Shown one piece after another: positions 1,253 through 38,745 of a stretch of DNA of 64,000 nt. Within the stretch, counting starts at the first letter, position 1. Every line of letters begins with the position of its first letter. The DNA lies in the NCBI RefSeq assembly GCF_964355755.1, contig NC_092674.1, positions 11,718,001 to 11,782,000 of the forward strand, in the 5' to 3' direction. The DNA is from Antedon mediterranea (Eukaryota > Animalia > Echinodermata). The notes beneath the pieces were generated by a model. It had not been told where the DNA came from. It was given only the letters and a program-made list of their open reading frames with translations, and did not search any database. The position numbers and the translations under genes were made by a program.

Positions 1253-1395
1253 ATATATATATATCGTATATCCAAAGGCAAATTACTGAAAAAAATGACA
1301 ATGCTGTGGGTATCAGTGGCTGGATCTCAATGGAGATACAACAAAAAAAGCGAAAAGCTAAATCAAAACGATAAAGTAAAACAGCCACATATATA

Positions 1396-1573
1396 GACCG
1401 AGTGGTCTAATGGTTAGGACATCTGCATATCAAGCAGGCGGTCCGAGTTCGAGTCTCGGTTGGGGCGACTTTTTCTCATTCTCACTGATTTCCTCATCTT
1501 TATCGTTTCAAATTAATTAAATTTCAGTATATCACCGGGCGGTTTCGAATTAATGTTCATTGCCTAATGTGTT
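1396..1573 (+). mobile_element. tRNA(Glu/Asp-like)-derived cassette, inverted copy of 757-932
   Basis: GTGGTCTAATGGTTAGGACATCTGCATATCAAGCAGGCGGTCCGAGTTCGAGTCTCGGTTGGGGCGACTTTTT plus the same body; flanked by TA repeats. Confidence 0.7.
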
Positions 1574-1794
1574 TATATATATATGAGATAAAATAATGTT
1601 GCAAACAACTAACTATACTAGATAAAACTATGAATTATTATATGAATATAATAGTAGAAGATAATGTTACATAAGAAGCAAAGCATTATTAAAGTAGAAA
1701 TATACATTCATAAAGAAAATTATATGTGTATATTAACAATTTATACTTAAATTCAATGTGTATAAAATATAATACCATAAGAAAATTATAATTA

Positions 1795-3077
1795 CTAGAG
1801 GGTGAGCTCGCTTCGCTCGCTCCCCCTCTAGGAAGTGTAGACGATGGTTCTCGGAATGATAAAACTGTTCTCCTTGTAAGTTTTCTGTCGGTTACCATTA
1901 TTAAAAATGCTTGACTTTCGTAAAACTAAACTACTCTGTTTCACAGTGTTTTAGATGATTAATAACATTTTAAAGTATAGTATTTATTGTTTTGTAGGGT
2001 CCTTTGGGGAGGCGGAATTCATTTGAGAGAGGTGCTTATTCGAGGGATATATGTTAATTTTTTTAGTTTTAATAATATGGTAACATTTCTAATCAAATGA
2101 AATCCTCTAATAGATATGAAAAGTAGTAAAAAAGAATTACAAATGCTTGGTAAATTGTAGATAACAGTGCGATGAATTCTACTACAAATAGTATAATGAT
2201 TATTATTCAAAGTGATGTTTTATTGGAGAGCCGTTTATTCAAATAAATACTATCCTAATAATTATTAATACATTATTTAATTTAAACATCTTTTGAAACT
2301 AACTGCCGTGACAGAGTGGCCCAAGAAAGAAGACATTACGGCTTGCAACATGGGCAGACATCTCGGTCCTAACGGGACACAGATAGCCTACAGTTATTCC
2401 TGTCAGCTAATACTCAATCAACTATCAGGATTTCACTCGATTTTAAACAAAATATCTTATCATCAAATCTCCCTATGTAATTTTATAATACTATTTCCCA
2501 CAATATATTCCGATTCTTTATGGCGTATATTTAATTTGATTTTTATTAATTTGCAGTATAATTTTTATATTTTAACTACTGTACCTTCACACACGCGCTG
2601 TCCGTTCCTAAAATAAACAAAAAACTGAAATGGCTATGCAATTTAAGTTAGAGTCCTACTATCGGTTTTTTTCTTCCTTCTTCCAAAGGGACACTGTATT
2701 GATTGATGGAAAGTACCAGTTACCTTTAGGGTCAAAACTATTATTTTAACTGCTCCCTTGTGTATAAAAGAGAGAAAATAGCTGAAACCAGGTTGTTGCA
2801 AGATGAACCCGGAAATTACTTTGATCCGGGAAGAATTGAAATTGAGTTGAAAATCTACTGTGGAAATCATAAATTGTGTTAAAAAACTCATTATAATATC
2901 TTCCTAAGGTAGCAATATGGAAAAATAGCGTCGATGTGAAAACCAATGTTATCAAATCTACGTTTCGCGGTACATCTGAGATAGATAAGGTAGGTATCCA
3001 AGGCGGAGATTTGTACCGAAGTTTTTGCATTGTGCTCGCCTATTATATGTCAGAATTAACCATAATTTATATATAGA
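1795..3077 (-). mobile_element. non-autonomous Helitron family 1, unit 1
   Basis: On the minus strand it starts TCTATATATAAAT and ends in a hairpin plus CTAG. The paralogous empty site A41521|T41522 shows insertion between A and T with no TSD. Confidence 0.9.
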
Positions 3078-4455
3078 CTAGAGGGTGAGCTCGCTTCGCT
3101 CGCTACCCCTCTAGGAAGTGTAGACGATGGTTTTCGGGATGATAATGTTCTCCTTATACGTTTTCTGTCGGTTACCATTATTGAAAATGCTTGACATTCG
3201 TAAAACTAAACTACTTTGTTTCACAGTGCTTTAGATGATTAATAACATTTTAAAGTACAGTTTTTATTGTTTGGTAGGGCCCTTTGGGGAGGCGGAGGTC
3301 ATTTGAGGGAGGTGCTTATTCGAGGGATATGTTAAATTTTGTAGTTTTAATAATATGGTAACATTTATAATCAAATGAAATCCTCTAATAGATATGAAAA
3401 GTGCTAAAAAAGAATAACAAATGCTTGGTAAATTGTAGATAACAGTGCGGTGAATTCTACTACAAATAGTACCGTATAATTGTGTTGTTATAAATATGTG
3501 GATGGACGTTTATTAGATAGTTGGGTTGGGGGGGGGGGGGGGTTATTATTCAAAGTGATGTTTTATTGGAGAGGCGTTTATTCAAATGAATACCATCCTA
3601 ATAATTATTAATACATTATTTAATTTAATCATCTTTTGAAACTAACTGCCGTGACAGAGTGGGCCCAAGAAAGAAGATATTATGGTAGGGCTTGCAACAT
3701 GGGCAGACATCTCGGTCCTAACGGGACACAGGAAGATAGCCTACAGTTATTCCTGCAAGCTTACTCAATAAAACTCAGCTAGCTATCGGGATTTCACTCG
3801 ATCGAAAAATGTCTTATCATCAAATCTCCCTATGTAATTTTATAATACTATTCCCCACAATATATTCTGATTCTTTATGGCGTATATTTAATTTGATCTT
3901 TATTAATTTGCAGTATAATTCCTATTATTTAACTACTGTACCTTCACACACGCATGGTATGTTTTAAAATAAACAAAAAACTGAAATGGCTATGATTAAT
4001 GGCCAACTTAAGCTCCAGTCCTACTATATCTGATTTTTTTTTCGTCTTCCAAAGGAACACTGTATTGATTGATGGAAAGTGCCTGTTTCCAGTCACCTTT
4101 AGGGTCAAATCTATTATTTTAACTGCTCCCTTGTGTATAAAAGAGAGAAAATATTTGAAACCAGGTTGTTGCAAGGTGAACTTATCTTAAACCCGGAAAT
4201 TACTTTGACCGGGAAGAATTGAAATTGAGATGAAAATCTAATGTTGAAATCATAAATTGTGTTAAAAAACTCTTTATAATATCTTCCTAAGATAGAAATA
4301 TGGAACAATAGCGTCGCTGTGAACACTAATGTTATCAAATCTACGTTTCGCGGTACATCTGAGATAGATAAGGTAGGTATCCAAGGCGGAGATTTGTACC
4401 GAAGTTTTTGCATTGTGCTCGCCTATGTCAGAATTAACCATAATTTATATATAGA
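3078..4455 (-). mobile_element. non-autonomous Helitron family 1, unit 2 (head-to-tail with unit 1)
   Basis: Same termini; CTAG|TC junction at 3077/3078; diverged from unit 1 by substitutions and indels. Confidence 0.9.
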
Positions 4456-6307
4456 TGTTCGTGTAAAAAGAAGGTGTTAAAGAAACGCTATGAACATGTT
4501 TAAATTATAATTGTAATTAATAATTGGTATTAATTAAAATTATAATTGTTTTTTCATGGCTATCTGAGTAATAAATACTTGTAAATAGTTATGAAAATAT
4601 AATTTTGTTTTATAATTATTATTATTATAATTATTATATCTTAATGTCTGTATAAGTAAAAATTAAAAACATCTGTATTAATTGAGTAGAGTAAAGAAAC
4701 AAATATTAATGAAAATTTTGCATATAAAGATAAATATTATTTACAAAAATATGCATTTTTATAAAAAATAAAAGAGAGAAAAGAATTAAGATTATGGATG
4801 CCGTCTTGTTCCCCCATAAGTACGTTCACATTCTAATTAAATATTCATCATGCAACTGGTTTAATTCCTTAGGCTAAAAATTCATTTATGAATTGAAAAT
4901 GACGCACTGTTTTTGTTTGAACTACGACTAAACTTCGACGTAAGGTTAATTGTGCTATTGTTACATTATTAGTTTTCTTATATTCAAAGTATTTTCCATG
5001 ACTTGTATTTGGTAAAATACAACAATAGAGCATTTCCAACAAATAGTAGGCTTACTAAACAAACAGGCGATGAGAGAAAGCCACTACGAATAATACTGTG
5101 TCTTAAAGTAGAGTTGATCACGCCATAACGTTGATGTTATTGCTGTTCGATTTATAAAGCGCTTAGCCTATACAATCGAAAGATTGTCACAAAGCGCTGA
5201 GAGAAAAAACAGAAAGAAATTACAGAGAAAAAAGATAGATTTTTAAGAGTGTTTTGAAAACTATGATAGAGGATGCATTTTTAATAGTTTTTTATAATAA
5301 TAAAATAATTAATAATAATAATCAAATTTTCTTTTCCCAAAGTCATTGGCAACAGGCCATACCATATTACTATTTAAAATGGATAACTGACATGATAAAT
5401 ATTTGGCAAACCCAACATTTATTTGAGCGAGCAGCTCCTGAAATTGAAAAGCAAAACTGGGACAAAATTATAAAAAAAAATTGTAATGGATTTTCATTTA
5501 CATCCACATGCACATGTTATAGGCCAGACTCTTAACCATACGTATGCCCTAGAGTATAGTTATCGTAGAACTGTGAAATATCGTCTGATTTCAGTGTATT
5601 TCGTTTATTCTCAAAATACGAAAATCCTAATATATTCTAATTTTCGAAGGAAATGTTCTTTGAGTCAATTTTATTACTTTACTAGTGGTATAGATTTGTT
5701 TTCCTTCAGAGACAACATAATCTACAAAATAGTAATAATATCCTTGCGCTGTACACAAACACGATTAATGATACATTAGTCGCATACTATACTTTGTTCT
5801 ACAGATTGGTATTACGATTTCTAACACGAAGTTAATTCATACATTCATATTCCAGGCAATGCTGCCTGCCTTTAATTATAATTATATTTAGGCCACGGGC
5901 ACGTAGATTCACAAATATATTACAGTACATACCGGTATGTGGATTCTCTTATTTAACGATACAAATAAATGCTTTGACAGATAAACGTAAGCACAATAAT
6001 TTGTTAGTAACTTAAATAACTTTGAAAAAGAAGGATTGCGCTAATATAGGGACTCAGTAAGGTTTCCCATTCTGTCTTATAAGCCAGACATACAAGACAA
6101 GCGTGATGTGCCTACTCGTCATTCAATGACTCATCATTAATGTTTACATTACAATACAATACTCACATAGATATATTGAATTCTTCTACAATACACCGGC
6201 GCCATTACAAATTTACGTAGAGACTGTAGAAATAAACAATGGATATTTACAAAAATAGTGACAACTCATCAACAAAATAAACGAATATAGGCCCCTATAC
6301 GTTACCT

Positions 6308-6830
6308 AGATAAGATAAGATAAGATAACTTTTATTGATCCTCAAAAAGGAAATTCATTGCTCGTCATAATAACAAAGAAAACACTATAAAATCAAATAT
6401 AGCATAAAACCATTCATATAAAAACATCTAAAAAAATTACAATATAAAATTATCTTCTTGACTTCCTGCTGTACTGGATGATACCGGAGGGAATAAAAGA
6501 TTTAGCAAATCGATTTGTTTTCACACTGAGGAGCCTCAATCTACCACTTGGATTAAGTTGGTCTATGATCACTTTGTGGAGAGGATGAGAGGCATCCGAC
6601 TCAATGCGTTCGAAATCTTTCTCGAGGTGTTCTAGGTGCACATCGGTAAAGGAAGGCAGTTCCAGACCAATCATTTTACCAGCCCGACGGATGACAGTTT
6701 CAAGGCGTCCTTTATTCCCTCCGGTAACATTACCAGCCCAACAGGAGAGGCAATACGTCCAAACACTACATATAACGGATCTATAGAACGAAAGTAACAT
6801 CAAATCACAGGAGTTAAATTTATATAAAGT
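6308..6830 (-). mobile_element. 5'-truncated LINE, Rex1/Babar-like 3' end
   Basis: ORF 6450-6803 (FYRSVICSVWTYCLSCWAGN...HPLH...KTNRFAKSFIP) is an RT C-terminus. AATAAA plus (TTATC)n tail; absent from the paralog. Confidence 0.8.
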
Positions 6831-7388
6831 TCTCTATTTTGTATCATAGTATTATATCAAATTAACAATAAACTGTTACCTCTAAAACCGAAAATACAGT
6901 GGACTCATTACCTTTACCTATCTTGATCTTGGTGTGTGTTAACTATACGTCATAAGACGTTTCGTCAGTCGGAAAATTATTCACTTTGTTCGGAAGCTTA
7001 TTGACTTTGTGAAGTCATGTCTTTCAAATAAATTATACGGAGGCATGTTAGTGACATATTCGTCAACACATTCTTCATACTATAATATTTTTTTAACTGT
7101 TGCAATTGCCATAATCCATTATTTTTTTTTAATTCTAGGGTTAAAAACCGTCAGTACAGTACTGTTTTTATTGTAGTATAGTCATTAATGTATGGTCCTT
7201 GAATAGTTATTGTGTAAATAACAACGCAGAATAATTACATTTACAGATTTGGCATTTTCCAAAAAAAATCCAATAATAATATAAATTGATCTGTCCCTGC
7301 ACTAATTTACGGAAGCGTTAAAGTGCCATTCACTTGGCGACTTGTCGAGATATTTTATCTTGTCAAGTCGACATAAATGTATGACTAT

Positions 7389-8082
7389 TGTGTTGCTCCT
7401 ATTTTAGCTGCATCTTGCCTTTCCGAGAGAGGGCGTATGTAATTAGGATCCATGTTATAAGTTTCGCATTGACTACATGTGTTCTAGAATTCGGCTTCTA
7501 AATGTCTTATTGTGCCGAGATAGTGTGTAATTTACTAAACTAGTAGGCCGCACATTGCTTGTAAGTTGTTAGAGTATTATATTACAATAATTAGAATTAT
7601 ATAAACCACAGTAGTGGCCTAGATTATTAATGCTATACTACATTGTCGTAGGCCTATGCCTGCGTAGATTGATTTATGAATCGTATACGATCGCTCGAAC
7701 AGCATGGCGATAAACACGAGTCTCCGTGTAGAGGGCGGTGTTCTATTTTGTATGCCGTATCTATAGAAGTAGTCACGTCCATATGAGAGCGCTGTTGATT
7801 ATTTGATATCTTTATTTACTATGTTCTTTAGGCATGTACACCTCCGTAAGAGGGCGCTACGTTTGATCTGTTTTGCAGATAGTTTTATATTTATGTTATG
7901 TTTATTATTACTATTTGGAGCTGGATTTAAGTATGCTTAATTTCAGTTCACCCTGTTTATGGCTGAATTTGCTGTATTAAAGAGTCAGTCAACAAGTGAT
8001 TGTGTTGCAGTATTTTTTGTCGTGGATTGGGTTTATCTACTGAATAGCGAGTTTGACGGTTCAAGCTTGTGAGGTCAGCACA
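7389..8082 (+). repeat. 5' LTR of the BEL/Pao element
   Basis: Direct repeat of 13943-14642; I counted about 5 substitutions and two 3-bp indels. Confidence 0.97.
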
Positions 8083-8092
8083 GTGAAAAGCA

Positions 8093-11000
8093 ATGTCGAC
8101 TTCTAGTAGAAGACGTGATGGTGCGAGAGATGAAGCAAGATCAATAGGGTCAAGGAGCCATAGATCGAAGGCTTCATCGCAGTCAGTGTCATCATTAGAG
8201 GTATCTGCTGCACAAGCTCGTGCTGATGCTGCTGTAGCAAAGGCTCGTGTTACATTTGCAAAGAAGAAGAGTGCCGCCAAGTTAGAGGCGTTGAAAGCTG
8301 AAATGGAAGCAGCTAAAGCCATGTTAGACATAGACGAATAGAGAAAGAAGAAGAAATGGCTGCAGCACAGGCTAGAGCCAATGTCCCTCAAGCAGAATTG
8401 CAACATATGTCTTTTGAAGATATTGAGGAAGAGCTTTCACAGTTAGAAAGCAATAATCAGATGGAAGATGTGCAAGGCGCACCCCAAGATACAGTACCCA
8501 GTCAAAGAATGGCAGAGGTGCTAAAAGAACTTCCTAAGATGGAACCCAGTCAGCGGATAGAGAATTATCTAAACAATGCTGTAGAGGTACCAATGTCTAC
8601 TCTTAATCCTGGAGCTAGACCTTACGAACCAAATCATATGCAGGAGTACATTCGAATACTGGCACGTCAGCGATTACCCTTGCAAGAACCGGATATTTAC
8701 TCTGGGGATCCTATAATGTTTCTACCGTGGAAAAGATCCTTTGAAGCTATGGTGAAAACAGCCTGTGTGGACACTGTTGAAAAGCTGTCATTCCTGTGTA
8801 AATATACTACTGGCGAAGCAAAAGTTTTGGTTGATCGATTCAGACTAAGGCATGTTGAAGATGTTGACAAGGCCTATCATGAGGCCTGGACTGAGCTAGA
8901 AGACAGGTTCGGGAACCAAACCTTAATATCAGCTGAAATCATCCTGAGACTTACCAAATACAGAAGATTCAAAACAGGTGATTTGACCGCACTCCAAGAA
9001 CTGGCTGATTTGTGTGGAGACGCAGTTGCTCAAATGCAGGAGCTACCCCATCTGATTACGTTAAACACTCCTCATGGTATTAAACCAATTGTAAAGAAGT
9101 TACCACACTTCATAATAAATGGAGAGAAAAGGTCGCAAAACACAAAAGCAAAATGAAAACGTTCCCAAATTTCAGCATTTTCACAGAGTTTCTAAGTGAG
9201 ATGGCTCACATTCAACGTGATCCTGATGTCCCAAGAGGAACTGTCGATGAGGTCAAAACTGATACACCTGGAAATTACCGTACACAGACAGGTTACCGTC
9301 CTAAGGCCACGCAACGTTCAACTGTAAATGTGAGAATGACTGAGGTGAATAAATCTGAAGGGATGTGTCCGCTACACAATGGTCAGCATCCGTTGGTAGA
9401 CTGTAGAAACTTTCTGGCCAAGACTTATGCTGCCAAGAAGTCATTCCTTAAGGAAAACCAAGTATGTTTCCGATGTCTCTCATCTACATCACACATGGCT
9501 AGGAATTGTGATAGAAATTTCAGGTGTGGAGAATGCGGTAGTGATCGTCACCCGACTGCATTCCATGGTGACCGTCCGCAGAAGGCGAATGGCGGGGAAC
9601 AAGTAAAAGCGGAGCAAAAGGCGAATGGCGGGGAGCAAGCAAATGTGGAGCAAAATAAGGCGAAAGGCGAGGAGCAAATGGAAGTACAGCAGAAGGAAAA
9701 TGTCGGGGAGCAGGGGAAAGAGTCGCTGAAGGCGAAGGATAAAAATAAAGTAGTAAGTACTACAGGTACGGATGTCTGCGGTGGAATTGGGCTGAGCCGA
9801 TCGTGTGCTAAAATTTGTTTAGCAAAAATATATTTAGAAGACAATCCTAACACTTTCATAAAAACCTACATTATACTAGACGACCAAAGCAATCGCTCGT
9901 TGGCCAAGAGTGAGGTATTCGACCTTTTTAACATCAATGCAAGACTTACATCGTATACTTTGAAGACCTGTTCGGGAGCGGCTGAAGTTCAAGGCCGAAA
10001 ACTGGAGAAGCTGATAATTGAGTCCATGGATGGTAAAACAAGAATAGCAGCCCCATTGCTACTTGAATGTAATGACATACCTGGGAACAAGGCAGAAATT
10101 CCCACTCCAGAGACAGCCAGCAATTTTCCTCACTTGAAGGATATTGCGGACAAGATACCACCCTTGGATGAGAATGCAAATATTACCATACTGCTGGGCC
10201 GAGATGCTGCTCAAGCTCATAAAGTCCGAGAAGTACGCAATGGACCAAATAACTCTCCATGGGGCCAACGACTTGATCTAGGCTGGATGGTTATTGGCGA
10301 CGTCTGCTTAGGGGGAGCCCACCAAAAGAATGTTGTCACCACCAACAGAAACCATATAAAGGTTTTGAGAAATGGTAGGCCATCCGCCATGTTTACAACT
10401 TGTAAAGGAATGATCAGTGCGAAGGAAATAACCCTGCAACGCAGCTGTGACGTACTCGGTGGTAATGTATTCCAACAGAAAGAAGATGACGAGCAGTATG
10501 GAATGTCCAGAGAAAATGTGGAGTTCGTGCAACTTATGGGAAAAGAGATGAAACGAGGTGAACAAGGAAATTGGATAGCCCCACTTCCTTTTCGAGAAGA
10601 AAGAAAAAGGTTACCCAACAACAAGCAGCAAGCATTGAATCGTATGCAGTCTCTTATTCGCACACTGGATAAGAAGCCAGAGATGAAAGCTCACTACTTA
10701 GCGTTCATGGAGAAAGTATTCTCAAAGCAACATGCTGAGCTCGTCGAAGATGAAAGTCATGATGAAGAGTGCTGGTATTTACCACACTTTGGTGTGTACC
10801 ATCCACAAAAGCCAGGGAAGATCCGGGTGCTTTTTGATTCCAGTGCGCAATAATTCCAAGATACATCACTTAACAACGTGTTAATGAGTGGACCAGATCT
10901 GGTATATGGGTTGCTTGGTGTATTGATACGGTTCAGGCAGGATCTTGTGGCGTTTGTAGCAGACATTGAGCAAATGTTCTACTCATTTCAAGTCGTGGAA

Positions 11001-13826
11001 GAACACATAGATTATCTTCGGTTCCTGTGGTTCGAAAAAACAACGACCCCAGCAAAGTATTGAGAACGTACCGGATGAAAGTTCACATCTTCGGAAACAA
11101 ACCTTCTCCAGCTGTTGCTACGCTAGGACTGAGAAAGACTGCACAAGAAAGAGAGAGCGAGTTTGGCGCAGATGCAAGAGAGTTCGTGGAGAAGAATTTG
11201 TATGTCGATGATGGGCTGAAGTCTTTAGCTACTTCAGATGAGACGATCGACCTGCTCAAGCGCACACAAGCCATATTAGCCACAGCTAATTTACGGTTAC
11301 ACAAGATTGTCTCAAACGATGCAAAAGTGATAGCTGCTTTCTCACCTCAAAATGTAGCAAGTAACATGTGCAACCTCGATCTCGGATCTGACACCCCTCT
11401 TATGCAAAGGTCATTAGGGGTACTGTGGGATGTCAAGTCAGATGCTTTTAATTTCTCTATTACGGAGGTTAGCAGCAAGGCATTCACTAAGCGAGAAGTG
11501 CTGTCAGAAATCAACAGCATATATGACCCAATTGGCTTTGCGTCACCCGTCATTATAGAGGGAAGAAGGCTGTTAAGGGAAATGACAAGAGATCAATTCA
11601 TAGATTGGGATGAGCCATTACCGAAACAGCTACATGATTCATGGCAGAAGTGGCGGAGCTCCATAGTTCAACTGTCAGATGTTCTGATCCCTCGTCCTTA
11701 TACATCATTTCCATCAAACCAGTCCATCCAGAGAGAACTCCACACATTCTCTGATGCTTCTAACACAGCCATTGGCGCTGTGTCTTACCTCAGAATTACT
11801 GTTAAAGTGGGAGAAGTTCACTTGAGTTTTGTTGTTGGAAAGGCAAAGCTAGCACCTAAAGCTGCGACATCAATACCTCGCTTAGAGTTGTGCGGAGCAG
11901 TACTTGCCGCAGAAGTCGCAACATGTGTTAAGACTGAATTGGATTTTAACTTGGATGCCACACATTTTTACACCGATAGCAAGGTCGTTCTCGGTTATAT
12001 CAGAAATAAAACCCATAGGTTCTACATGTACGTGGCGAACAGAGTGGAACAGATTCTTCAGTCGACCAAACCAGAACAATGGAAATATGTTAAAACAGAC
12101 ATAAACCCAACCGATCAAGCTACAAGATCCATCAAGGCTAAAGACTTACAGAACTCGGCATGGATTCAAGGACCAAGATTCTTACTTAATACGAACTCGT
12201 GTGAGAGAAACACAACGGTCTGGGACATCAGTGAAATTGAAGAGGATCCTGAAGTAAGACCTGTCGTAGCTGCCAGTGCTACAGAAGTTCAGTCAGCCAA
12301 ATCATTGGGATCCGAGCGATTTAGCAGATTTTCAAATTGGGGAAATCTTGTGCGAGCAATTGGGAAGTCTTGTGCATATTGCTTGTACATTCATAGAAAC
12401 CGAGAAAAAAGACTGTAGTGGGTGGCATGTATGCATGATTCCACCACCTGTATTGATCAAGGCAAAACAGATTGTAGTAAAATGTACTGAACTTGATGAA
12501 TTCACAGATGAAATCAATCACATAAAGAATGGGATGCATCTTCCTAAGACAAGTACGCTAGTAAAGCTTACACCCTATTTGGATAACGAGGGAGTTCTGC
12601 GAGTTGGAGGACGTTTAGGAATTGTACTAGCCGAAGAAAGAGCGCATCCCATGATTCTTCCTAAACATCACCATGTCACAACATTAATCATCCGCCACTA
12701 CCACCAACAAGTTCAACACCAAGGCAGACACCTAACACATGGCAGAATACGTAGTGAAGGCTTCTGGATAATTGGTGGCAAGAGGTCAATCTCAAAGGAG
12801 ATTGGAAAATGTGTAGTTTGCAAGAAACAAAGAGGAAAGCAAGAGACGCAGAAAATGGCTGATCTACCCAAGGAACGCTTAACATCAGCTCCCCCATTCA
12901 CATATGTAGGGCTTGACGTATTCGGTCCTTGGATGGTACGAACACGGCGCACAAGGGGTGGACAAGCAAACGGAAACGATGGGCCATTTTGTTTACTTGC
13001 ATATGTAGTCGGGCTGTCCATATAGAGGTGATAGAGTGTATGGATACCTCAAGCTGCTTGAACGCCCTTAGAAGATTCTTTACGAAAAGAGGTCCTGCGA
13101 AACAACCACGGTCAGATTGTGGGACGAATTTTGTTGGTGCGTGCAATATCTTGGGTGAAAGTATTCAGAAAGAAGGACAAGATAAAATTAAACGCTATCG
13201 ATTGACCCGTGAATGTGAGTGGGTGTTCAACCCGCCTCATGCTTCCCATATGGGAGGAAGTTGGGAACGTATGATTGGAGTAGCAAGGAAGATTATAGAT
13301 GGTATGTTTAGAGATCTTGGAGAAACCAAGTTAACCCACGAAGTCCTGGTAACACTAATGGAAGAAGTATCAGGAATTATTAATGCACGACCCTTAGTAG
13401 AAGTCTCTACTGATCCTGAATCACCACAAATAATATCAACAAACACTCTACTTACTCAAAAGTCTCAACCATTCGCAGCACCTCCTGGAGCGTTTTTTTA
13501 ATGCTGATTTGTATGGTAAGCAGTGGCGAACGGTACAGCACTTGGCTAACAAATTTTGGTCAAAATGGAAAAGAGACTATATCCCTACACTTCAGAACAG
13601 GAGCAAGTGGCAACAGGAAAAGAGGAATATAAAGGAAGGAGATATTGTTCTTCTAAAGGAGAAAGACACCGTCAGAAATGATTGGCCTATGGGACGAATC
13701 GTTAAAGCAATTGAAGGATCAGACGGACGAGTTAGGAGAGTAGAAGTGACTGTTTATAGAGGTGGAGAACTGAAAACCTTTGCAAGACCGATCAGTGAAT
13801 TGGTGCTGATAATGCCGACTCATTAA
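8093..13826 (+). pseudogene. BEL/Pao gag-pol broken by stops and frameshifts
   Basis: Consecutive ORF pieces 8093-8341, 8356-9156, 9153-10853, 10878-11063, 11027-12418, 12276-13025, 12929-13501 and 13509-13826 carry the domains in BEL order. Confidence 0.95.
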
Positions 13827-13942
13827 GACTGTTACATTGAACATTTTTGTTATAATGATTATTAATTATGTCATATTATTTTGTATTCTTTATGTTTTAA
13901 CTTTTTGATATAAATGGTATCTTTTAGATACCAGACGGGGAG

Positions 13943-14642
13943 TGTGTTGCTCCTATTTTAGCTGCATCTTGCCTTTCCGAGAGAGGGCGTATGTAATTAG
14001 GATCCATGTTATAAGTTTCGCATTGACTACATGTGTTCTAGAGTTCGGCTTCTAAATGTCTTATTGTGCCGAGATAGTGTGTAATTTACTAAACTAGAAG
14101 GCCGCACATTGCTTGTAAGTTGTTAGAGTATTATATTATTACAATAATTAGAATTATATAAACCACAGTAGTGGCCTAGATTATTAATGCTATACTACAT
14201 TGTGGTCGTAGGCCTATGCCTGCGTAGATTGATTTATGAATCGTATACGATCGCGCGAACAGCATGGCGATAAACACGAGTCTCCGTGTAGAGGGCGGTG
14301 TTCTATTTTGTATGCCGTATCTATAGAAGTAGTCACGTCCATATGAGGGCGCTGTTGATTATTTGATATCTTTATTTACTATGTTCTTTAGGCATGTACA
14401 CCTCCGTAAGAGGGCGCTACGTTTGATCTGTTTTGCAGATAGTTTTATATTTATGTTATGTTTATTATTACTATTTGGAGCTGGATTTAAGTATGCTTAA
14501 TTTCAGTTCACCCTGTTTATGGCTGAATTTGCTGTATTAAAGAGTCAGTCAACAAGTGATTGTGTTGCAGTATTTTTTGTCGTGGATTGGGTTTATCTAC
14601 TGAATAGCGAGTTTGACGGTTCAAGCTCGTGAGGTCAGCACA
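13943..14642 (+). repeat. 3' LTR of the BEL/Pao element
   Basis: Follows the PPT, ends in CA and is followed by TSD ACTAT. Confidence 0.97.
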
Positions 14643-14647
14643 ACTAT

Positions 14648-15050
14648 TATGTCGACATAGTAACCATTATATGTCTATATGGCGAGATAGTTTATCTTGC
14701 CAAGTTGACTTCCTAATAACTACATGTTGACTAGACTAGATAGATTAACTTGCCAAGTTGACTATACTTCGACGCTTGGAGCGTCCAAGTGCCATTCATT
14801 TCGCGACTTGTCGAGATCATTTATCTTGTCAAGTCGACATAAATGTATGGCTATTATGTCGACATAATAACCATTATATGTCGACATGACGAGATACATT
14901 ATCTTGCCAAGTTGATTTCCTCATAAATACATGTCCACATGACGACTACTACATTATCTTACCAAGTTGACTTTTCCAAAGAGTTTATGTCGACATGACA
15001 TGCTAGACAATCTTGCTAAGTCGACTTCACACAAGAGTGTATATCGACAT
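14648..15050. repeat. GTCGACAT / TTGCCAAGTTGAC-rich tandem repeat hosting the BEL insertion
   Basis: Continues from 7309-7388; the uninterrupted unit reappears at about 14785-14880. Confidence 0.75.
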
Positions 15051-15182
15051 AGGTATAGAAACAACAGCAGAATAAAGATACATTGCCGCCTGCCAGGCAG
15101 AACATGTCTTGGCAAGTTGATGCTCAACGCGCGACACACGTGGGGAAATATTTTTACTCGCCACCACATTGACAACCAACCA

Positions 15183-18100
15183 GGGTGTGTAGAAAGCGAC
15201 GACCTCGAATTGGACGACCCCAACGACCCGGGCGACCTCGAATTGGACGACCTAGAATTGGACGACCCATAACACGAAACCGACGACCCCTATAATAGCC
15301 TAGCCTAGCCTAGGCCTAAGTATGGTATAACATCCCGAAGCCGAACATAACCAAAGATCTTTAAACCATACCTTATATAATACTCGCAAGCAAGCAATTG
15401 ATTGAAAAAATACAGAAATATCGCCATTTGATACTGAATGTGTCGACACGAACAAACGAACAGATATGGAACGCCAAGAGTGCATCATTAAAACTGCATT
15501 CGACTCGATTAGCACACGAAATATCATAAACATGGCAAACCAGGCCCCTTTTTCAGCGGCAGGTAAGGTTTGACCATGGAGGTACTCCATGGTTTGACCA
15601 GCTCCATGGTTTGACCATGGAGGTATAAAAATATTTTTATACCTCCATGGTTTGACCGTATACAATGCATGTGTGAAAACGTTATTTTCTATGGAACGCC
15701 AAATGCTTACTTTCGCCGGTGCTCGTTTCTATTTAATAGAAGTTCTATTTATATTAATTATTAGATATAACGATGTATATTCCAAAGTTTATATATCAAG
15801 GTTTTTAGTATATATTATTAAATATTATAATTAAAGAGAAATAATTATGAATATCTGACTTGTAGATTCCAAAATATAAGGCCTAAAACATGACCGAAAA
15901 TGATCGTTTTTAGCCAAAAATGACGTAAACATGTTGCCCCCTCAGGCGGCAGTTGAAGTAAAATAATTGCATAAAATCACCGTTTTTTAGTAAAATATTT
16001 TGTGTATTAATTACGGGATTAATTAACATTGTAAAATTCAATAAAATATGATATTAAAAGATAGTAAATAAAAAATAATAATTATTTAACCTCATTCGAA
16101 GAATATCAATACTCTATTAGTCCTGAGAGACAACGTGATTTTACGTGGTAGGCATACACGCGAGAAAAATATTATGGAGTGCACTGCATTTTTACCTTGA
16201 AAGATTAAAAACAATTAAATTATTAAATATGACTACTTTCCTTTGCTGTTTCAAACCAACAAAATTGTAGTACTGTAATTATTATTTATTTTCATGACAC
16301 AATAAACCTAAAGACCATGAACTTATGTAGGGCCTACTAGGACACCACTCTATCACTACGCGAAATATCGTAAAAGACGCACTGGCCGTTTCATAGAAAT
16401 TACCGGCGGCTCAACTTGTCGGCGGCCCAACCGGTCATATCCCCACATGCACATGTTACACATCCACGTCAAACAGCGAAAATGGGACATTAAGTGTTCC
16501 GAGAGCCGTTTTCATTGTTTAAGTTAGCCGGAGCCTTTTTCGATTGGCTATAAATAGAAAGTTACCGAGCATTTCGAGCGACGCGAGTTCTGACTTCCGT
16601 GTTTTATAGGCTGTCTAAATTTCCCTTTTAACGGGTTTATATTAAATTATATTGTTGTTTGATTTATTTCTGTTTATAAAGAACATTTATATTAAACAAA
16701 AACCACAACAATAGCAATTTTAGTTGATTATGGATTAATTTATTCGAATTCTAAGATAAACGTCTAAGCCAAGTGTAAACGTAAACAAAGCGAGTCATAC
16801 GGCGAAAACAAAAAAGTGAAAACTAACTAATTTGTTAAAATAGCTAACATTAATTTGCAATTTTTAAATGAAATTCTGAAAACGCTATAATATAGTCTTA
16901 TATGCATTTTCAAAGATTTCCAAATATAAGCTTGGGGTTATTTTTCAAACAAATTCTATAAGGAGTTGAAGATAGTGTATTTTGAGCGAAAGTGCGGTGC
17001 GCGTAGGCCTAGGAAGACACGGCAGGGCTGGAATACTCGTTTCCTTAGGCGACGAGAACGACGGAAGATGCGCTCCATCACTGTGCTCTCAATTTTAGTT
17101 CTTGTTAAGTGGATGATGCAGAATCTTATAATATGGGCTTATAAATTTTAAAATAAAGTGCTCAACTTTCATTTTTCTTAAAATTATGAAGATTAGTGTG
17201 AAGTGGGGACTGTCTGCATGCCTGAACAGCTGACTTGGTAAAATACTGAAAAATCAGTCAATTAGTTAGGCCTAGGCTAATTAATTAATGTACAGTATAT
17301 AATGTCATATTTTTATGAATAGAGCTAAATCTACTAGTAGGCTTACTAGTAATCTCATAATAAATCTGTTAATGTCACCTGTCACTAACATATGATTGAT
17401 TTAAGTATATGCTGAAAATGTTTACTTTTTATCGGAGCTAAAATGAAATTTCGCAGTTCCCTGCTTTTTATTATAATAATGGAGCAATAAATGAAATACA
17501 AATACACACCAATTAACATTTTAACTTTTAATATTATCACAAATTTCACCTTAAAAATCAGACAAGTTTTCTACATCAACTTAGCTAACATTTGTACTAA
17601 GCCTAATCTTCAATAGATTTACTATTACTGTAGTAGGCCTATTACCATTATTTATTTGCCAATTTGAAATGTACATTTAAACTTTATTAAACTACTGCAC
17701 AACAACCAACTGCCACTTGAACCTTTAAATAAGTAAATTAGGATAAGTTAAAGTTTTTACAAAATAAATGTCTTTTTGGCAATACATCTATAGATATCCA
17801 TAATTACAGTATTAATAGTGCTTTTTCAAATTATATGCCAGAAGTAAATTAATATGACTCATAAGAAATTGTTGTTGATTTAATGCTATTTGTATTGAAG
17901 TATGTAGAACAATCCTCTGTGGTCTGTAAAAAAACAACAACATTCAATTAATAATAATCATTATTTAATTATATTTGTATATTTATTCTTATTTTCTTAG
18001 GCCTATAAACAACACGCGCCTGACAATGAACACGCGCCAATAATGCACGCACTACCCCACTATTATAGGCTAAAGCCTGGCTCTCCTACTGTACTACTAG

Positions 18101-19202
18101 GCCTAGACTATATTGATTTATAAATAAAACAAAGAGGCTTTGTAGAGTTTTATGATTTAAAACAGCTTTCCTATATATTATATGTTTCCCTTATTAATTT
18201 ACAAAACCACATTTCTTATCTTATGGCGTAAAAAATGATTTTAGCTACAACCATGTGTTCCATTTTCGATAGTGAAATACCCAAGAAGGCACATGTTTAA
18301 GCAGCCATTAAAAAAAAATAAAAAATAACCCCAACGAGATTTTTTTATTAACTACTATTGAAAAATCAAATATTCAGAAACTATAAAACCCACCTTCTCA
18401 AAAAATTGCGTTGTTTTATTACAGCCTCAACAAATTAGACGAAATTTTAACATTCGAATAGCCTAAAATTGTTTAAAAAACATCGGTGTAATTCACCCTT
18501 GTTTCATAAAAATATAATGGGTTCGTCGATTAAAAAACAATATCACGTGGTTCGTAGATGCCTTGTCAAAGGTTTTCATGAATTATTCATTAGTAAATAA
18601 ATCCAAAAGTTCCAATTGGCCAGTTTGCAAAAACCTAAGATTTACTTTTCAAAACAAAGTTGCTTCCGGGTAATTGTCAACGCTGTCTCGTGTGCAAAAA
18701 CGATTCGCTGCCGATAGAGGGCTCACTACTTTTTGTCCCTGGTGAATTGAGTGTGGTTACGCTGCTTGGTAGGCCTATAGTGTTCGTTATAAGACTTAGA
18801 CGAGATGTAATTATACGTCCATGGTTTAACCATGTACAGTATTGTATAATATTTATTTCTTTTTAATTTATTTTTAATATGTCGAATGCAGTTTTAATGA
18901 TGCACTCTTGGCGTTCCATATCTTTTCGTTTGTTCGTGTCGACACAATCCGTATCAAATGGCGATTTTTCTGTATTTTTTCAATCAATTGCTTGCTTGCG
19001 AGTATTATATAATAAGGTATAGTTTAAAGATCGTTGGCTATGTTCGGCTTTGGGATGTTATACCACACTTAGGCCTAGGCTAGGCTAGGCTATAGGGGTC
19101 GTCGGTTTCGTGTTATGGGTCGTTCAATTCGAGGTCGTTCAATTCGAGGTCGCCCGGGTCGTTGGGGTCGTCCAATTCGAGGTCGTCGCTTTCTACACAC
19201 CC
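15183..19202. mobile_element. long-TIR non-autonomous DNA element (Mutator/Foldback-like)
   Basis: About 320-bp inverted repeats (15183-15504, 18881-19202) starting GGGTGTGTAGAAAGCGACGACC with internal gacgacc subrepeats. No transposase and no TSD. Confidence 0.8.
15568..15656. other. stack of three P/Galileo-type excision footprints
   Basis: GTTTGAC x4 separated by CATGGAGGTACTCCATG, CAGCTCCATG and the 34-bp palindrome CATGGAGGTATAAAAAT-ATTTTTATACCTCCATG. Confidence 0.75.
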
Positions 19203-19553
19203 AAATTCAAACGTATCCGTATACGTGTTGTGACACTGATAGGTATTCGTATACGTGAGTTTGCCCAAACTCTCTAGCAATAATATTATTAGGTATACAC
19301 ATGGAGAATTCTCCATGGTATACAGATATCCGTGAATGGTTGGAAATAAAATGGCCCTATTAGGACTTTCGTCTTCGAAGCAACACAGCTAATATTGGAA
19401 CGTAATACATCAACACTATTTATTATAGTTCATAATCGTATTGTGTGAACATTGTTATTTGAATAGTGATTAGAAGTATAATGGACAAGTGCTAAAACAC
19501 TTCTAGATTATGGACTTATCAGTCTCGGTAGTGTGTTACCTGCACAAATCTTC
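19203..19553 (-). pseudogene. sialyltransferase copy C remnant (intron plus last bases of the sialylmotif-S exon)
   Basis: Matches about 45910-46232, including the donor/exon end TTACCTGCAnAAATCTTC. Confidence 0.85.
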
Positions 19554-19779
19554 TTGTTTAGTAAGCCTACTATTTGTTGGAAATGGTCTATTGTTGTATT
19601 TTACAAAAGACAAGTCATGGAAAATACTTTTGAATTTAAGACAACGAATACTGTATTCATAGCACAAAGACCAAATATTGTTTGATTTCTTTCCAAATCT
19701 CTAAAAAAACAGGTGCGGATCCCGGATTTTTAAATAGGTGGCCCAGATACTAAGTATTTGAGGCCACAGAGGTTGTGGT

Positions 19780-21550: not shown

Positions 21551-22126
21551 AATGCACTTGTATATAGGCTATCCGCCAAAAGTACTGATCAACATTGCAT
21601 GCGTTCAATGAAATAAAGGACTACATACGATGTTTAGCATTTACATTTGTTACTCATTGGATCATGAATTGTATATGTAGGCCTATGCGAATTATAGACA
21701 TTACGTGTGTTCAATAACTGACCTCTATAGTACTAAAAATTAGTAGATATCCGTGGTACAAACATGTCTACATCCATCCACTAGCAGCGCAAGAACTGAT
21801 GTGTGTGCTCGGACAATAGTTATCCACCCAAAGAACCGATTACCAGTAGATTTATTTTGTATGAATACATGGATTTCTATAGGAATCATGTAAATCCTAT
21901 TTTATATAGGAACCAAAATACGTTTTCATAAATATAAGTAATTTTATCTCAATCCATTATTAGGAATTTGGTTAACTCCTATTTCTTTAGAAGTGGTATG
22001 CAATGTGTTTTATGTGCTTTTTGGTGTCACATTAATGTACTTAAAAAAAAATCATCACTTTACCTTTTAGATAGAAAATACCCATTGTAACCTCTCAAAA
22101 ACGTATACTACCAGATTGCAAATTAA

Positions 22127-25100
22127 TGTAATATAACGATATACTTTTATATTTAAGAAATTGACCTTTGTATTGGAATTCAAATAGGTTCACAAACTTG
22201 ACCCAGAAAGTCCAGAGGAGAGTTTGTCCAGATGTTTTAATGACCATTTAGTTTATAATAGAATCCCTAAAGAAAACACTTAGCTTAACTTTGTGACTGT
22301 TCCCATCGTAAAACAATTAGATATTGACAGTTTTTAGCAGAGATTCGACAGGGCCAATTCATCATTGTAACCTCCCCAGATAAGATCAATCACTCCCACT
22401 TAAACACCCCTGGATCAACTTAGGACCAATCGTTACCCTCACAGATTACGTAGTGACATATGCAAATGAACCGAGGGCCAATATACTCCCAAGTTTCAGA
22501 AGGAACATCTACACCTTACAGCCACCTCACGGAGCACACACCTCACAGCCACTTCACGGAGCACACACCTCACAGCCACTTCTTCAGAAGAACATCTACA
22601 CCTCACAGCCACTTCTTCAGAAGAACATCTACACCTTACAGCCACTTCTCCAGAAGCAGACCTACACACTTCACACCTCACCGACAGCATCACTGATCCT
22701 CTGTATCCTTATCCTAATGGTATATTGTACCGAATCATTATTGTACTGAAGTATTATACTGAATAAACAATATATGTGTTACGACAGTTAAGCGAGTAAG
22801 AGTCTTTCATTAGTACAACAACGAAACATTATATTACATGGTGGAAGACCCGAATTTATAAGGAACAGAGTGAGAAAACAGAATAACAAGAAAACAAGAA
22901 ATAAACACTTAACAAGACACGAAGACGAAGACAAAATAACCATATTTGTTTGAAAGGAGAAAACCAGAAATTTACTTTGACTCAAAAGACAAGCTGAAAT
23001 TATATTTGAATGAGATCGAGACAAGCAGAAATTTTATCAAATTATTACCATTGGATGAAGACAACGAAGATAATCGAGGAAGACACAAAAAAAACAAGCT
23101 GAAATTATATTTGGATGAGATCGAGACAAGCAGAAATTTTATCAAATTATAACCATTGGATACAGACAAAGAAGATAATCGAGGAAGACCCAAGAAGAAT
23201 CAAAACAGAAGCAAGCGGACAAGAACTGTTTCGTTTGGACACTTTCAACTTCACGCCGTTTTTTTTTTCGATCGTTTTTTTTAACATTTACTTTTTTGAC
23301 CATTTTGAACATTGATGAACACTTTTAACATTTTTTTTAATTCGTTGTTTGAACATTTAAACATTTTTGAACACTTTTTGCATTCCTTTAATTCATTTTA
23401 ATTGGATCCGAAGCATATGATAGGACACCCACCCAATTGCAATCAGATACCCTTACACATCCAACTAAAGTAGAACCCCTTAACTTGCAACCTTACGTTG
23501 ACTGTGTAGAGAATAACATGGGATTAGCAGCCCCATTCCAAATGAAAGAAGAACAAATAAAGGAACAAACTAATTTAATTATGACAGCACCTAATGATTC
23601 AAATATGACATTAAACCGAGGTAGATTTAAAGCAGGACATTTCCAAGTTTTAGTTTCGTATTCTAAACCGACTTCAGCCAAACGCAACACCGATAAAACA
23701 AAACACGAATCTAATGATCGCAAATTTTGGTGGAATATTGACAGATATAACGATACAGATAAATTAATTAAAGAGATCATTAATGATAAACAGATACCGA
23801 TAAGTGGATCGCCAAAACGATTCATAAAACGTTTGTATAATGCAACGAATTACTGATTTATTTTTTTTTGGAAGATTATTTTTAAATTACGACATTTGCT
23901 AAATTAATGATAGCATAGTCTACGTATTTGATGAGATTTGTTTAGTAATGATGTGATTTCAGTTAAAAGAGAATTGAATTTATGTTTAAGTATTGATTTG
24001 TAACGAGTTTTTTTTTTTGATAAAGATTAATTTTGAATTTTGATGATCGATATATTGAGATATTGAAAAGAACGACAATCATTTTGTAACAAATATTTTG
24101 TTTAACCTTTGAGTCGTTAATCTCAAGCATTAATTAATTGATATACAATAACAGGAGAGTACAAAAGTCGAATTTGTCGACCGATTGAAATCGTAATTAC
24201 CTGTGAATATAAATGCTTAAATCGATAAAGTTGTGACGATAACGATATATTGTGGATAAGTTTGTGTCAACGGGACATACACATTTGTTTCTTTAAAGCT
24301 TTAAGTGATTAAGTTTGATATTTCGATTTTAGACTTATGAGCCACAGTTTCTTGAGTTTTATGTTTTAATTTGATTGATTTATATTTGAAGACCATTAGA
24401 ACGCGATGAGTGTATGTTCAATGTAACATACTATTTTTAAGTTTTGTATTTTTATTTTCAACTGATTTATGTTTGATTTACGCGAATTTTATACCAAATT
24501 CATTCTTAATTTCATTTTTTTAAGAGAGAGAAGAGAGAGAGTGAAAGTGATAAGGTTACACTTCAGAGTCAATGGTTTTGGCTAACTCAATTTTTGCTTA
24601 TATGTATAATAATTTTTTTTTTCTTTTATATAACTTTAATTTTGCATGCCACTATTATAACCATTTTTATATTTAAAATAGATTAGAAGAAAAAAAAAAG
24701 GGAAACAGAGGGATGTAATATAACGATATACTTTTATATTTAAGAAATTGACCTTTGTATCGGAATTCAAATAGGTTCACAAACTTGACCCAGAAAGTCC
24801 AGAGGAGAGTTTGTCCAGATGTTTTAATGACCATTTAGTTTATAATAGAATCCATAAAGAAAACACTTAGCTTAACTTTGTGACTGTTCCCATCGTAAAA
24901 CAATTAGATATTGACAGTTTTTAGCAGAGATTTGACAGGGCCAATTCATCATTGTAACCTCCCCAGATAAGATCAATCACTCCCACTTAAACACCCCTGG
25001 ATCAACTTAGGACCAATCGTTACCCTCACAGATTACGTAGTGACATATGCAAATGAACCAAGGGCCAATATACTCCCAAGTTTCAGAAGGAACATCTACA

Positions 25101-25260
25101 CCTTACAGCCACCTCACGGAGCACACACCTCACAGCCACTTCACGGAGCACACACCTCACAGCCACTTCTTCAGAAGAACATCTACACCTCACAGCCACT
25201 TCTTCAGAAGAACATCTACACCTTACAGCCACTTCTCCAGAAGCAGACCTACACACTTCA
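22127..25260 (+). mobile_element. non-autonomous LTR retrotransposon (no gag/RT), 3' LTR truncated
   Basis: 5' LTR 22127-22838 (TGTAATATAA...TTATATTACA), PBS TGGTGGAAGACCCG at 22839, purine tract before 24714, 3' LTR 24714-25260 with about 4 differences over 547 bp. Confidence 0.9.
23437..23856 (+). CDS. internal ORF of the LTR element, possible integrase C-terminal chromodomain-like remnant
   Basis: LNRGRFKAGHFQVLVSY...KFWWNID loosely resembles a chromo-like pattern; resemblance by eye only. Confidence 0.3.
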   Translation: MQSDTLTHPTKVEPLNLQPYVDCVENNMGLAAPFQMKEEQIKEQTNLIMTAPNDSNMTLNRGRFKAGHFQVLVSYSKPTSAKRNTDKTKHESNDRKFWWNIDRYNDTDKLIKEIINDKQIPISGSPKRFIKRLYNATNY

Positions 25261-25439
25261 TACCTAGAGCTCAGTACCTACCTGTAAAAACAAATATTAG
25301 AGGTTTAATATCAGTTTTTTGTTTTGAGAGAATTGAATTTTGATTTTAAAAAAATGTATAGCAGTGTTTAATTTTCTTTCCAATTATCCATGCTTTTTAT
25401 TTGCTGCCTGTCTCTTTTCATGACTTTGTTCATTTTACT

Positions 25440-37717: not shown

Positions 37718-38745
37718 CTAGATGGACATTCTCGAATAAACAGTAATTTCAGCGAAACAAAACTGGCGATTTCAAATGTACGTACCGCAGGACTATAATA
37801 CATTGTCGTTAACAGAAACGAATAAATAGACACGATGATGTATGCAGTCAACTAAAATTAGTACCCTGGGAATTACTTACCGAAAGAGAAACCAAATTTT
37901 TGATTTTTGGACTCATTTAAACAAACCCAATTTGTGTTTTGTATGTAACATTAAGGTTGAGGGAAGGTACAAAGAGGAACAATTTTTAAACATATTCTTT
38001 TTCCACTCAGCAACGAAATATTTTTGTTCATGTTTTATAGGCCTATAAATAATATACCACTAAATACAGTAAAATATTTGCGATTTAACACTTTGTTAAA
38101 ACTGTCATAGTCGATTGAAAGAGTAAAGTACGTTTATATTTTTTTGTAATTACTAATTAATACAAACGTTGAGAAGCAACTGTTAGTAATATAGTTTATT
38201 TGTATATTATGTGTTTATAATCTAACAGTAGGGCTTCCCACACTCACAGTAATACAGTTTATTTGTATATATGTTGATATTATATCTAACAGTACAAACA
38301 CTCACAGTAAGAAATTTGCGATTCAAATGGCGACCAAAAGTGGTTAATAAGTATTTACAGTATTGTATAGTATTGCAATACTCTATCTTTTGGTTTTAAG
38401 TTTATTCTCTAAGGGACTATAGATTTACCTACCTTTGTTAAACCATGGAGGTATACCTCCATTAAACCGAATAAGTTGGAATGTTTTTCAGCCATTAAAA
38501 ACAATTATCGTAGGAGGAGATAGGAAAATGCGAAGCATCCTCGTATTATTGTGTGCGGGTATTTTTCAAGATGGACATCCATTAGAGAGTGTATACCACG
38601 ATCGGAAAACACACCTATCTGGGGCAAATCGGGTGGTTAAAATCAGTACTGAAAGTACGAACCAACTTTATATACCATCGAGTAAACATAATAGAAATAA
38701 CGCGCGATTTACCGAATTTTGCCCTTACGTAAATTTATATATAGA
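37718..38745 (-). mobile_element. Helitron family 2, internally deleted, head-to-tail with the previous copy
   Basis: A|TC start at 38745, CTAG end at 37718, CTAG|TC junction; hairpin largely deleted. Confidence 0.82.

What the first reader, a model, noticed from the sequence alone, without database searches (positions are those of the whole stretch)
15568..15656. Triple-stacked P/Galileo-type excision scars, one an exact 17+17 nt palindrome
Seen: four copies of GTTTGAC separated by 17-, 10- and 34-bp fillers that all begin CA and end CTCCATG. The 34-mer is a perfect palindrome of two 17-nt halves. Established: Drosophila P transposase makes staggered cuts leaving 17-nt TIR overhangs at the donor site, and Galileo (P superfamily) makes 7-bp TSDs with a palindromic GTAGTAC-like consensus. 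Inference: a CATGGAGGTATAAAAAT-ended family inserted into and excised from the same heptamer three times, each round adding one TSD and one scar. This gives a self-extending record of transposition and suggests the 17-nt cut geometry is conserved outside insects.
Basis: partly seen in the sequence, partly recalled or inferred. Interest (0 to 1): 0.85.

Follow-up and report, generated by a model that had tools for sequence, protein, structure and literature searches.

The report
Stacked P-type transposon excision scars
An 82-base insert made of three tiny mirror-ended pieces, missing from other copies of the same repeat, is likely a pile of repair scars left when relatives of the fruit-fly P element landed on and left one 7-base site; such scars are known from flies, and their lengths here do not show the fly's 17-base cut and fit 18-19 bases at least as well.

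Summary
Observation confirmed: four GTTTGAC copies with 17-, 10- and 34-bp fillers, the last a perfect palindrome. The array lies in a non-coding 4-kb TIR element of an invertebrate. Other copies of that host carry one heptamer, exactly 82 bp shorter. The same palindrome sits at dozens of unrelated loci in two organisms and a few in a third, with targets leaning to GTTNAAC, the 1360/Hoppel motif. Best reading: stacked end-joining scars of a P-superfamily transposon whose CATG ends restore the target; made once, then copied with the host. Two corrections. (1) The 34-mer does not fix a 17-nt cut: it also reads as 18+18 or 19+19 with microhomology; 0 of 66 fly junctions are blunt 17+17, and 5 of 16 scars here exceed 34 bp. 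(2) Scars 1 and 2 may be one event, so two or three rounds. No full-length element or transposase was found; no genome was available. Each ingredient is published for Drosophila, and this scan noted the same kind of scar, also stacked, in other animal genomes.

The parts
15568..15574 (+). target heptamer, copy 1 (outer left)
   Evidence: single in empty host copies
15575..15591 (.). scar 1, 17 bp: 10 nt of left element end + 7 nt of right end
15592..15598 (+). target heptamer, copy 2
15599..15608 (.). scar 2, 10 bp: 2 nt + 1 extra base + 7 nt; may be a decayed duplicate of scar 1
   Evidence: +8-letter variant of this part (X2 record 15)
15609..15615 (+). target heptamer, copy 3, flanked by CATG on both sides (6 of 7 pairs of a 15-bp palindrome)
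15616..15649 (.). scar 3, 34-bp perfect palindrome; reads as 17+17 blunt, 18+18 with 2-nt overlap or 19+19 with 4-nt overlap
   Evidence: family at other loci
15650..15656 (+). target heptamer, copy 4 (outer right)
15183..19202 (.). host: non-coding 4.0-kb element with about 322-bp terminal inverted repeats (15183-15504 / 18881-19202, 94%), multi-copy; superfamily not determined
   Evidence: no Pfam hit in its ORFs of 75 aa or more; no Rfam hit; covered end to end by many contigs
19293..19324 (.). separate scar of a sister subfamily: 7-bp duplication + 18-bp perfect palindrome; absent (25-bp gap) from the paralogue near 45990
38437..38467 (.). separate scar of the same family on a GTTAAAC target, right end and first base of the duplication lost; one paralogue empty, one with a half scar

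Best explanation
The array is an 82-bp addition to one heptamer inside a multi-copy non-coding TIR element, and it is likely a stack of two or three donor-site repair scars of a P-superfamily cut-and-paste transposon with a 7-bp target duplication. Inferred steps: the transposase inserts at a GTTNRAC-like site and duplicates 7 bp; on excision it cuts flush on one strand and deep inside the terminal repeat on the other, so each flank keeps a long single-stranded piece of the element end; end joining trims or anneals the two pieces and leaves heptamer-short inverted repeat-heptamer. Because the ends read CATG, each heptamer copy next to a scar becomes a better palindromic target, which would draw the next insertion. 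The stack likely formed once in one host copy of this species' lineage and was then copied with the host. The cut depth is at least 17 nt and more likely 18-19 nt; it is not shown.
For: Shown: empty site, joint 15566->15649 skipping exactly 82 bp = 3x7 + 61 (X10, organism C), the same with a 5-letter local difference in X2, and two X1 contigs that run from heptamer 1 straight into the right flank. Shown: contigs carrying the palindrome with unrelated flanks on both sides (loose-end rows of 3-18 contigs each in X1, X2, X6, agreement 0.42-0.61; single contigs in X10), many ending exactly at 15616 and 15649, i.e. at the CATG boundaries. Shown: flanks after the palindrome run GTT/GTTT then AAC or GAAC in consensus, matching the 1360 motif GTTNAAC (PMC3276498 Table 4). 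Shown: two more scars in the window with empty paralogues; 3 of 119 metagenome hits have the same anatomy with exact 7- or 8-bp duplications (L117, L055, L054). Shown: variable filler length, 26-42 bp in 16 displayed records. Published: P leaves 17-nt 3' tails at the donor site and junctions of this form (PMC7776569; PMC2895639 Table 1); P ends restore and improve the target (PMC2577343); P inserts twice at one site (PMC5932611). Copying with the host: array-bearing contigs have depth 1388-9333 in X2 against 156 and 272 for two unique-flank contigs; in organism B summed depth falls from 55320 to 671 across scars 1-2.
Against: No full-length element with these ends and no THAP/P transposase was found (0 of 96 window ORFs; 0 of 25 ORFs from low-coding metagenome loci; no inverted partner with matching duplication beyond scar size among 119 loci); no genome could be searched. 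The empty-site joints have short sides (22-24 letters), below the 31 the tool asks for. No one- or two-scar intermediate appeared in the rows shown (45 indel rows and 287 pieces were not shown). Scars 1 and 2 share the same 7-nt right arm. Contig depth is only a rough guide to copy number. Contigs are not independent events.
Confidence: 0.75

Rival explanations
1. The inserts are extreme internal-deletion remnants of a TIR element of another superfamily (for example a 9-bp-duplication MULE, or any element shortened by aborted gap repair or by recombination between its ends), not products of a deep staggered cut.
For: At this locus the direct repeat is 9 bp. No transposase was found. Fillers above 34 bp exist.
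Against: At other loci the shared sequence stops at the CATG ends (15616 and 15649), so the outer C and G belong to the element; the 19293 scar is 7 bp (8 at most) against its empty paralogue; L117 is 7 bp, L055 and L054 are 8 bp, the P range. Displayed lengths cluster at 26-42 bp, though the display favours matches near 34.
Confidence: 0.12
2. The roughly 34-bp palindromes are themselves tiny mobile units that insert directly, and the stack records three direct insertions with no large element ever present.
For: Many loci carry near-full palindromes; 5 of 16 displayed records are 34 bp; no long element was seen.
Against: Centres differ from locus to locus by microhomology-like losses and small additions (table 4), arms are asymmetric (10+7, 2+7; half scars at 54030 and L054), which fits repair, not copying of one unit. 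P transposase needs binding sites internal to the terminal repeat (PMC7776569 figure 4 legend), which a 34-mer lacks.
Confidence: 0.07
3. One insertion event or none, followed by replication slippage of a single unit, built the whole array.
For: Scars 1 and 2 share a 7-nt right arm plus heptamer; host copies show later edits inside the array (an 11-letter loss in scar 3 at depth 4900 and an 8-letter gain in the left part at depth 1388 in X2).
Against: Units are 24, 17 and 41 bp; the 21-bp A/T core of scar 3 is in neither other unit nor the nearby flanks but is shared with scars at unrelated loci. Slippage can account for scar 2 at most; that milder version (two events plus one duplication) is included in the best explanation.
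Confidence: 0.06

Closest known systems
Drosophila melanogaster P element donor-site end-joining junctions (PMC2895639, passages and section 7 with Table 1 read; PMC7776569, passages and section 8 read)
   Same: duplication + left end piece + right end piece + duplication; CATG termini; asymmetric trimming, microhomology joins and small insertions
   Different: 7-bp not 8-bp duplication; different terminal sequence after CATG; natural and fixed, not induced; stacked; 34-bp perfect palindrome, which was 0 of 66 fly junctions (30 bp in 14, 32 bp in 5)
1360/Hoppel, P superfamily (PMC3276498, passages with Tables 3-4)
   Same: 7-bp duplication, target motif GTTNAAC (window targets GTTAAAC, GTTTGAC; contig consensus GTTTAAC/GTTGAAC)
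   Different: no transposase here to place the family; no donor-cut data for 1360 seen in what I read
Galileo (PMC4168063, passages)
   Same: 7-bp duplication (a few 8 bp), palindromic target that extends beyond it
   Different: consensus GTANTAC/GTATTAC, not GTTNAAC; long foldback TIRs not testable from scars
Repeated P insertion at one site (PMC2577343, passages; PMC5932611, passages)
   Same: element ends restore and improve the target, so neighbours end up one duplication apart
   Different: described for intact elements in tandem; here only scars remain

Membership tests
transposon insertion/excision footprint | empty site with a single copy of the duplicated word | tested here: met
   (X1, X2, X10; short sides of 14-24 letters); for the 19293 scar
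transposon insertion/excision footprint | same ends at unrelated loci, each with its own duplication | tested here: met
P superfamily | termini CAT...ATG | tested here: met
   conservation of the first 3 nt stated in PMC2577343
P superfamily | 7- or 8-bp target duplication with palindromic preference | tested here: met
   compared with PMC3276498
P superfamily | THAP/P-type DDE transposase encoded between these ends | tested here: inconclusive
   none in 96 window ORFs or 25 locus ORFs; no full-length copy in collection scans; genome not held
P superfamily | 17-nt staggered donor cut | tested here: inconclusive
   arms of at least 17 nt are retained, but 17, 18 and 19 all fit the 34-mer; recurrent variants fit 18-19 with fewer inserted bases (partly circular)
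P superfamily | GTP-dependent transposase, internal binding sites | not testable with these tools
   needs the element and biochemistry
Galileo | target consensus GTANTAC | tested here: not met
   targets of this family lean to GTTNAAC; small, unweighted sample
Galileo | long internally repetitive TIRs | not testable with these tools
   only the outer 17-19 nt survive in scars
MULE (9-bp duplication) | 9-bp duplication at all insertions | tested here: not met
   9 bp only at this locus; 7 bp at 19293 and L117; shared sequence stops at the CATG ends elsewhere. The 9-bp rule is recalled, not from a call

The most novel reading that the evidence does not exclude
A 7-bp-duplication (1360-like) P clade in a non-insect invertebrate cuts its donor ends 18-19 nt deep, at a short TAT motif rather than at the fly's fixed 17 nt, and its scars act as self-improving landing pads, so genomes hold a countable fossil record of cut position and of repeat visits to one site; a host transposon then spread one three-scar stack to tens of loci.
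Probability: 0.35. Interest if true: 0.55.

Novelty: new member of a known kind. Interest (0 to 1): 0.38.

Why it matters
The deep staggered donor cut is described as peculiar to P and, in the papers I read, measured only for the fly element. Natural scars give a way to read the cut depth of unstudied P-type families straight from genomes, including the 7-bp clade, and the stack is a compact example of the predicted feedback in which element ends improve the target. The sequence itself has no sign of a host function: it lies in a non-coding repeat. The mechanism is known, so the value is as data for a genome-wide count, not as a new system.

Tried and rejected
Viral contigs: 28 loci for the 17-nt end, 26 of 28 followed by G, i.e. 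a ribosome-binding site before an ATG, none with a duplication; 0 and 8 loci for two calibration patterns; 2 loci (one contig) for a scar pattern, of which L156 was read and is a longer hairpin without duplication. Prokaryote genomes: 0 loci in two scans. Metagenome scan: 119 loci of about 240 estimated, 39 with about 600 bp or less; 3 scars kept; L077 (exact 8-bp repeat, filler not ending CATG), L044 and L062 (1 mismatch) set aside as ambiguous; L114 (distant partner, 4 mismatches) rejected. Pfam: no transposase of any DNA-transposon family in 96 window ORFs or 25 locus ORFs. Rfam: 0 hits in 14600-19700. Host target duplication: not identifiable; the paralogue of the right neighbour does not share the left flank. 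Homology between the array site and the CATG-flanked heptamer at 18824: weak, 7 of 300 shuffles reach the score. No RNA holder listed; expression not addressed. Literature: eight searches listed no paper on natural scars of this family; Repbase, Dfam and most subscription papers are not in the library, and no supplements were opened.

Full report
Observation. The window holds four copies of GTTTGAC at 15568, 15592, 15609 and 15650, separated by fillers of 17, 10 and 34 bp that start CA and end CTCCATG; the 34-mer is a perfect palindrome. The strict pattern (7-mer, CATG..CATG, same 7-mer) occurs 3 times in the window and 0 times in 200 shuffles; the loose CA..TG pattern occurs 4 times against 1.4 per shuffle. 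At this locus the repeat extends to 9 bp, so duplication length has to come from other loci.

Setting. The window is repeat-rich animal DNA (about 33% G+C) with a BEL/Pao-type LTR element, LINE fragments and sialyltransferase exons. Earlier notes on the same genome call it a feather star (not tested). The array lies 64 bp inside the left terminal repeat of a 4.0-kb element (15183-19202) with about 322-bp inverted repeats, no Pfam hit in its ORFs and no Rfam hit. No whole genome was held, so I laid contigs of 4 of the 19 listed public runs (X1, X2 organism A; X6 organism B; X10 organism C) on the region twice.

The array is an insertion into a single heptamer. In X10 one contig joins 15566 to 15649, skipping exactly 82 bp, which is three heptamers plus the three fillers; in X2 a contig of depth 1945 makes the same jump with a 5-letter local difference; in X1 two contigs leave the window after heptamer 1 and continue with 14 letters of the right flank. 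The sides are short (14-24 letters), below the tool's 31-letter bar, but they agree across three samples and two organisms. In organism B the summed depth drops from 55320 just left of the site to 671 over scars 1-2. In organism A the array itself lies on short, deep contigs (1388-9333 in X2, against 156 and 272 for two unique-flank contigs; 55-147 against 6-14 in X1, one diverged piece at 8), which suggests, roughly, tens of host copies carrying the stack. About half of that depth has an 11-letter loss in scar 3 and a part has an 8-letter gain in the left half. I infer that the stack formed once and was then copied and edited with the host. No one- or two-scar intermediate was in the rows shown; 45 indel rows and 287 pieces were not shown.

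The insert family is dispersed. Many contigs match only the palindrome and continue into unrelated flanks on both sides: loose-end rows of 3-18 contigs each in X1, X2 and X6 with agreement of 0.42-0.61, and single contigs in X10. Large rows end exactly at 15616 and 15649, which puts the element ends at CATG and argues against a 9-bp duplication. Where the match runs on through GTT or GTTT, the consensus continues GAAC or AAC, i.e. GTTNAAC, the published target motif of the 7-bp P-superfamily element 1360 (PMC3276498, passages), not Galileo's GTANTAC (PMC4168063, passages). In the window a sister-subfamily scar at 19293-19324 is a clean 25-bp insertion against its paralogue, and a scar on a GTTAAAC target at 38437 has one empty paralogue and one with a half scar. 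Of 119 metagenome loci with the end motif, 3 have the same anatomy: L117 (37 bp, 7-bp duplication), L055 (30 bp, 8 bp) and L054 (21-bp half scar, 8 bp).

Mechanism. P transposase cuts the 3' end flush and the other strand 17 bp inside the terminal repeat (PMC7776569, passages and section 8); end joining of the donor site gives duplication + end piece + end piece + duplication, with trimming, microhomology and small insertions (PMC2895639, section 7 and Table 1). Scar 1 (10+7), scar 2 (2+1+7) and the half scars have direct counterparts in that table. P ends restore and improve the palindromic target, and repeat insertions are predicted to lie one duplication apart (PMC2577343, passages); tandem P elements separated by one duplication are common in wild flies (PMC5932611, passages). 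Here the inner heptamer copy 3 has 6 of 7 palindromic pairs over 15 bp against 4 for the outer copies. These steps are inferred by analogy; elements may also have piled up first and left later, which gives the same end product.

The 17-nt claim does not follow. The centre of the 34-mer is self-complementary, so it reads equally as 17+17 blunt, 18+18 with a 2-nt overlap or 19+19 with a 4-nt overlap. In the fly table, 0 of 66 junctions are blunt 17+17; the perfect palindromes are 30 bp (14 isolates) and 32 bp (5). By that analogy a 34-bp palindrome points to arms of 18 or more. Among the 29 records displayed I dropped 13 (11 from the host site, the empty-site record and one aligned to scar 1) and computed filler lengths for 16: 26, 27, 27, 30, 30, 32, five of 34, 35, 36, 36, 38, 42; the display favours long matches and four of the 34s have 5-7 mismatches. 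Two mirror-image 35-bp forms recur (6 and 7 contigs in X6; 3 and 7 in X2, one of the latter being the 38-bp form) and need one and the same inserted base under a 17/17 cut but none under 18/18 or 19/18. That test is partly circular, since the longer arms were read from the variants themselves, table rows can co-occur in one contig, A-run slippage can mimic some rows, and contigs need not be independent events. So: at least 17, likely 18-19, not shown. Earlier AI notes reported 18-20-nt edges for such scars in other animals; I saw them before making this argument and did not test them.

Number of events. Scar 3 has an A/T core absent from the other units and the near flanks, so it is not a slippage product. 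Scars 1 and 2 share their right arm and could be one event plus a decayed duplicate; the unseen 8-letter variant would decide. Two or three events.

What is missing. No full-length element and no transposase were found in the window (0 of 96 ORFs), in low-coding metagenome loci (0 of 25 ORFs), or in scans of viral and prokaryote collections. Membership in the P superfamily therefore rests on ends, duplication length, target motif and scar anatomy. In passages of a zebrafish THAP9 preprint (10.1101/2024.03.22.586318) I saw no cut position for a non-fly element. Eight literature searches listed no description of natural scars of this family; repeat databases were not searchable and supplements were not opened.

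Verdict. A real feature, most likely stacked P-type excision scars (0.75): a new member of a known kind, already noted by this scan in other animals, including a stack. Interest 0.38; higher only if a genome-wide arm count with the full element shows a cut depth that differs from the fly's.

Noticed in passing
window 18820-18834: A perfect GTTNAAC heptamer flanked by CATG on both sides (7 of 7 palindromic pairs) about 50 bp inside the host's right terminal repeat; the sequence to its left resembles a right element end (1 mismatch in 12). Possibly a second hit site in the host; alignment to the left-arm site was weak.
   Followed up: partly
X10 record 9: A 358-bp contig in organism C matches 15543 onward twice in opposite orientation, suggesting a short MITE-like version of the host whose inverted repeats reach the target heptamer.
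   Followed up: no
window 7389-14642: BEL/Pao-type LTR retrotransposon with 700-bp LTRs 98.4% alike (7389-8082, 13943-14642) and a frameshifted gag-pol.
   Followed up: no
window 34594-35100 and 47045-47350, minus strand: Two sialyltransferase (PF00777) exons, 82% alike over about 417 bp, i.e. a local gene duplication.
   Followed up: no
window 22126-22678 and 24713-25265: 553-bp direct repeats 99% alike around a 2-kb interior, possibly a small LTR element.
   Followed up: no
window 60365-60395: A right-end-like motif followed by GTACACC without a clear left duplication; maybe a decayed scar of another subfamily; no paralogue in the window.
   Followed up: partly
window 60939-63104: 721-aa open frame with a reverse transcriptase domain (LINE-like), preceded by an in-frame stop.
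   Followed up: no
L054 1060-1096, L055 2290-2335: Scars with nearly the same ends but 8-bp duplications in other animal-like contigs: closely similar terminal repeats go with both 7- and 8-bp duplications.
   Followed up: partly
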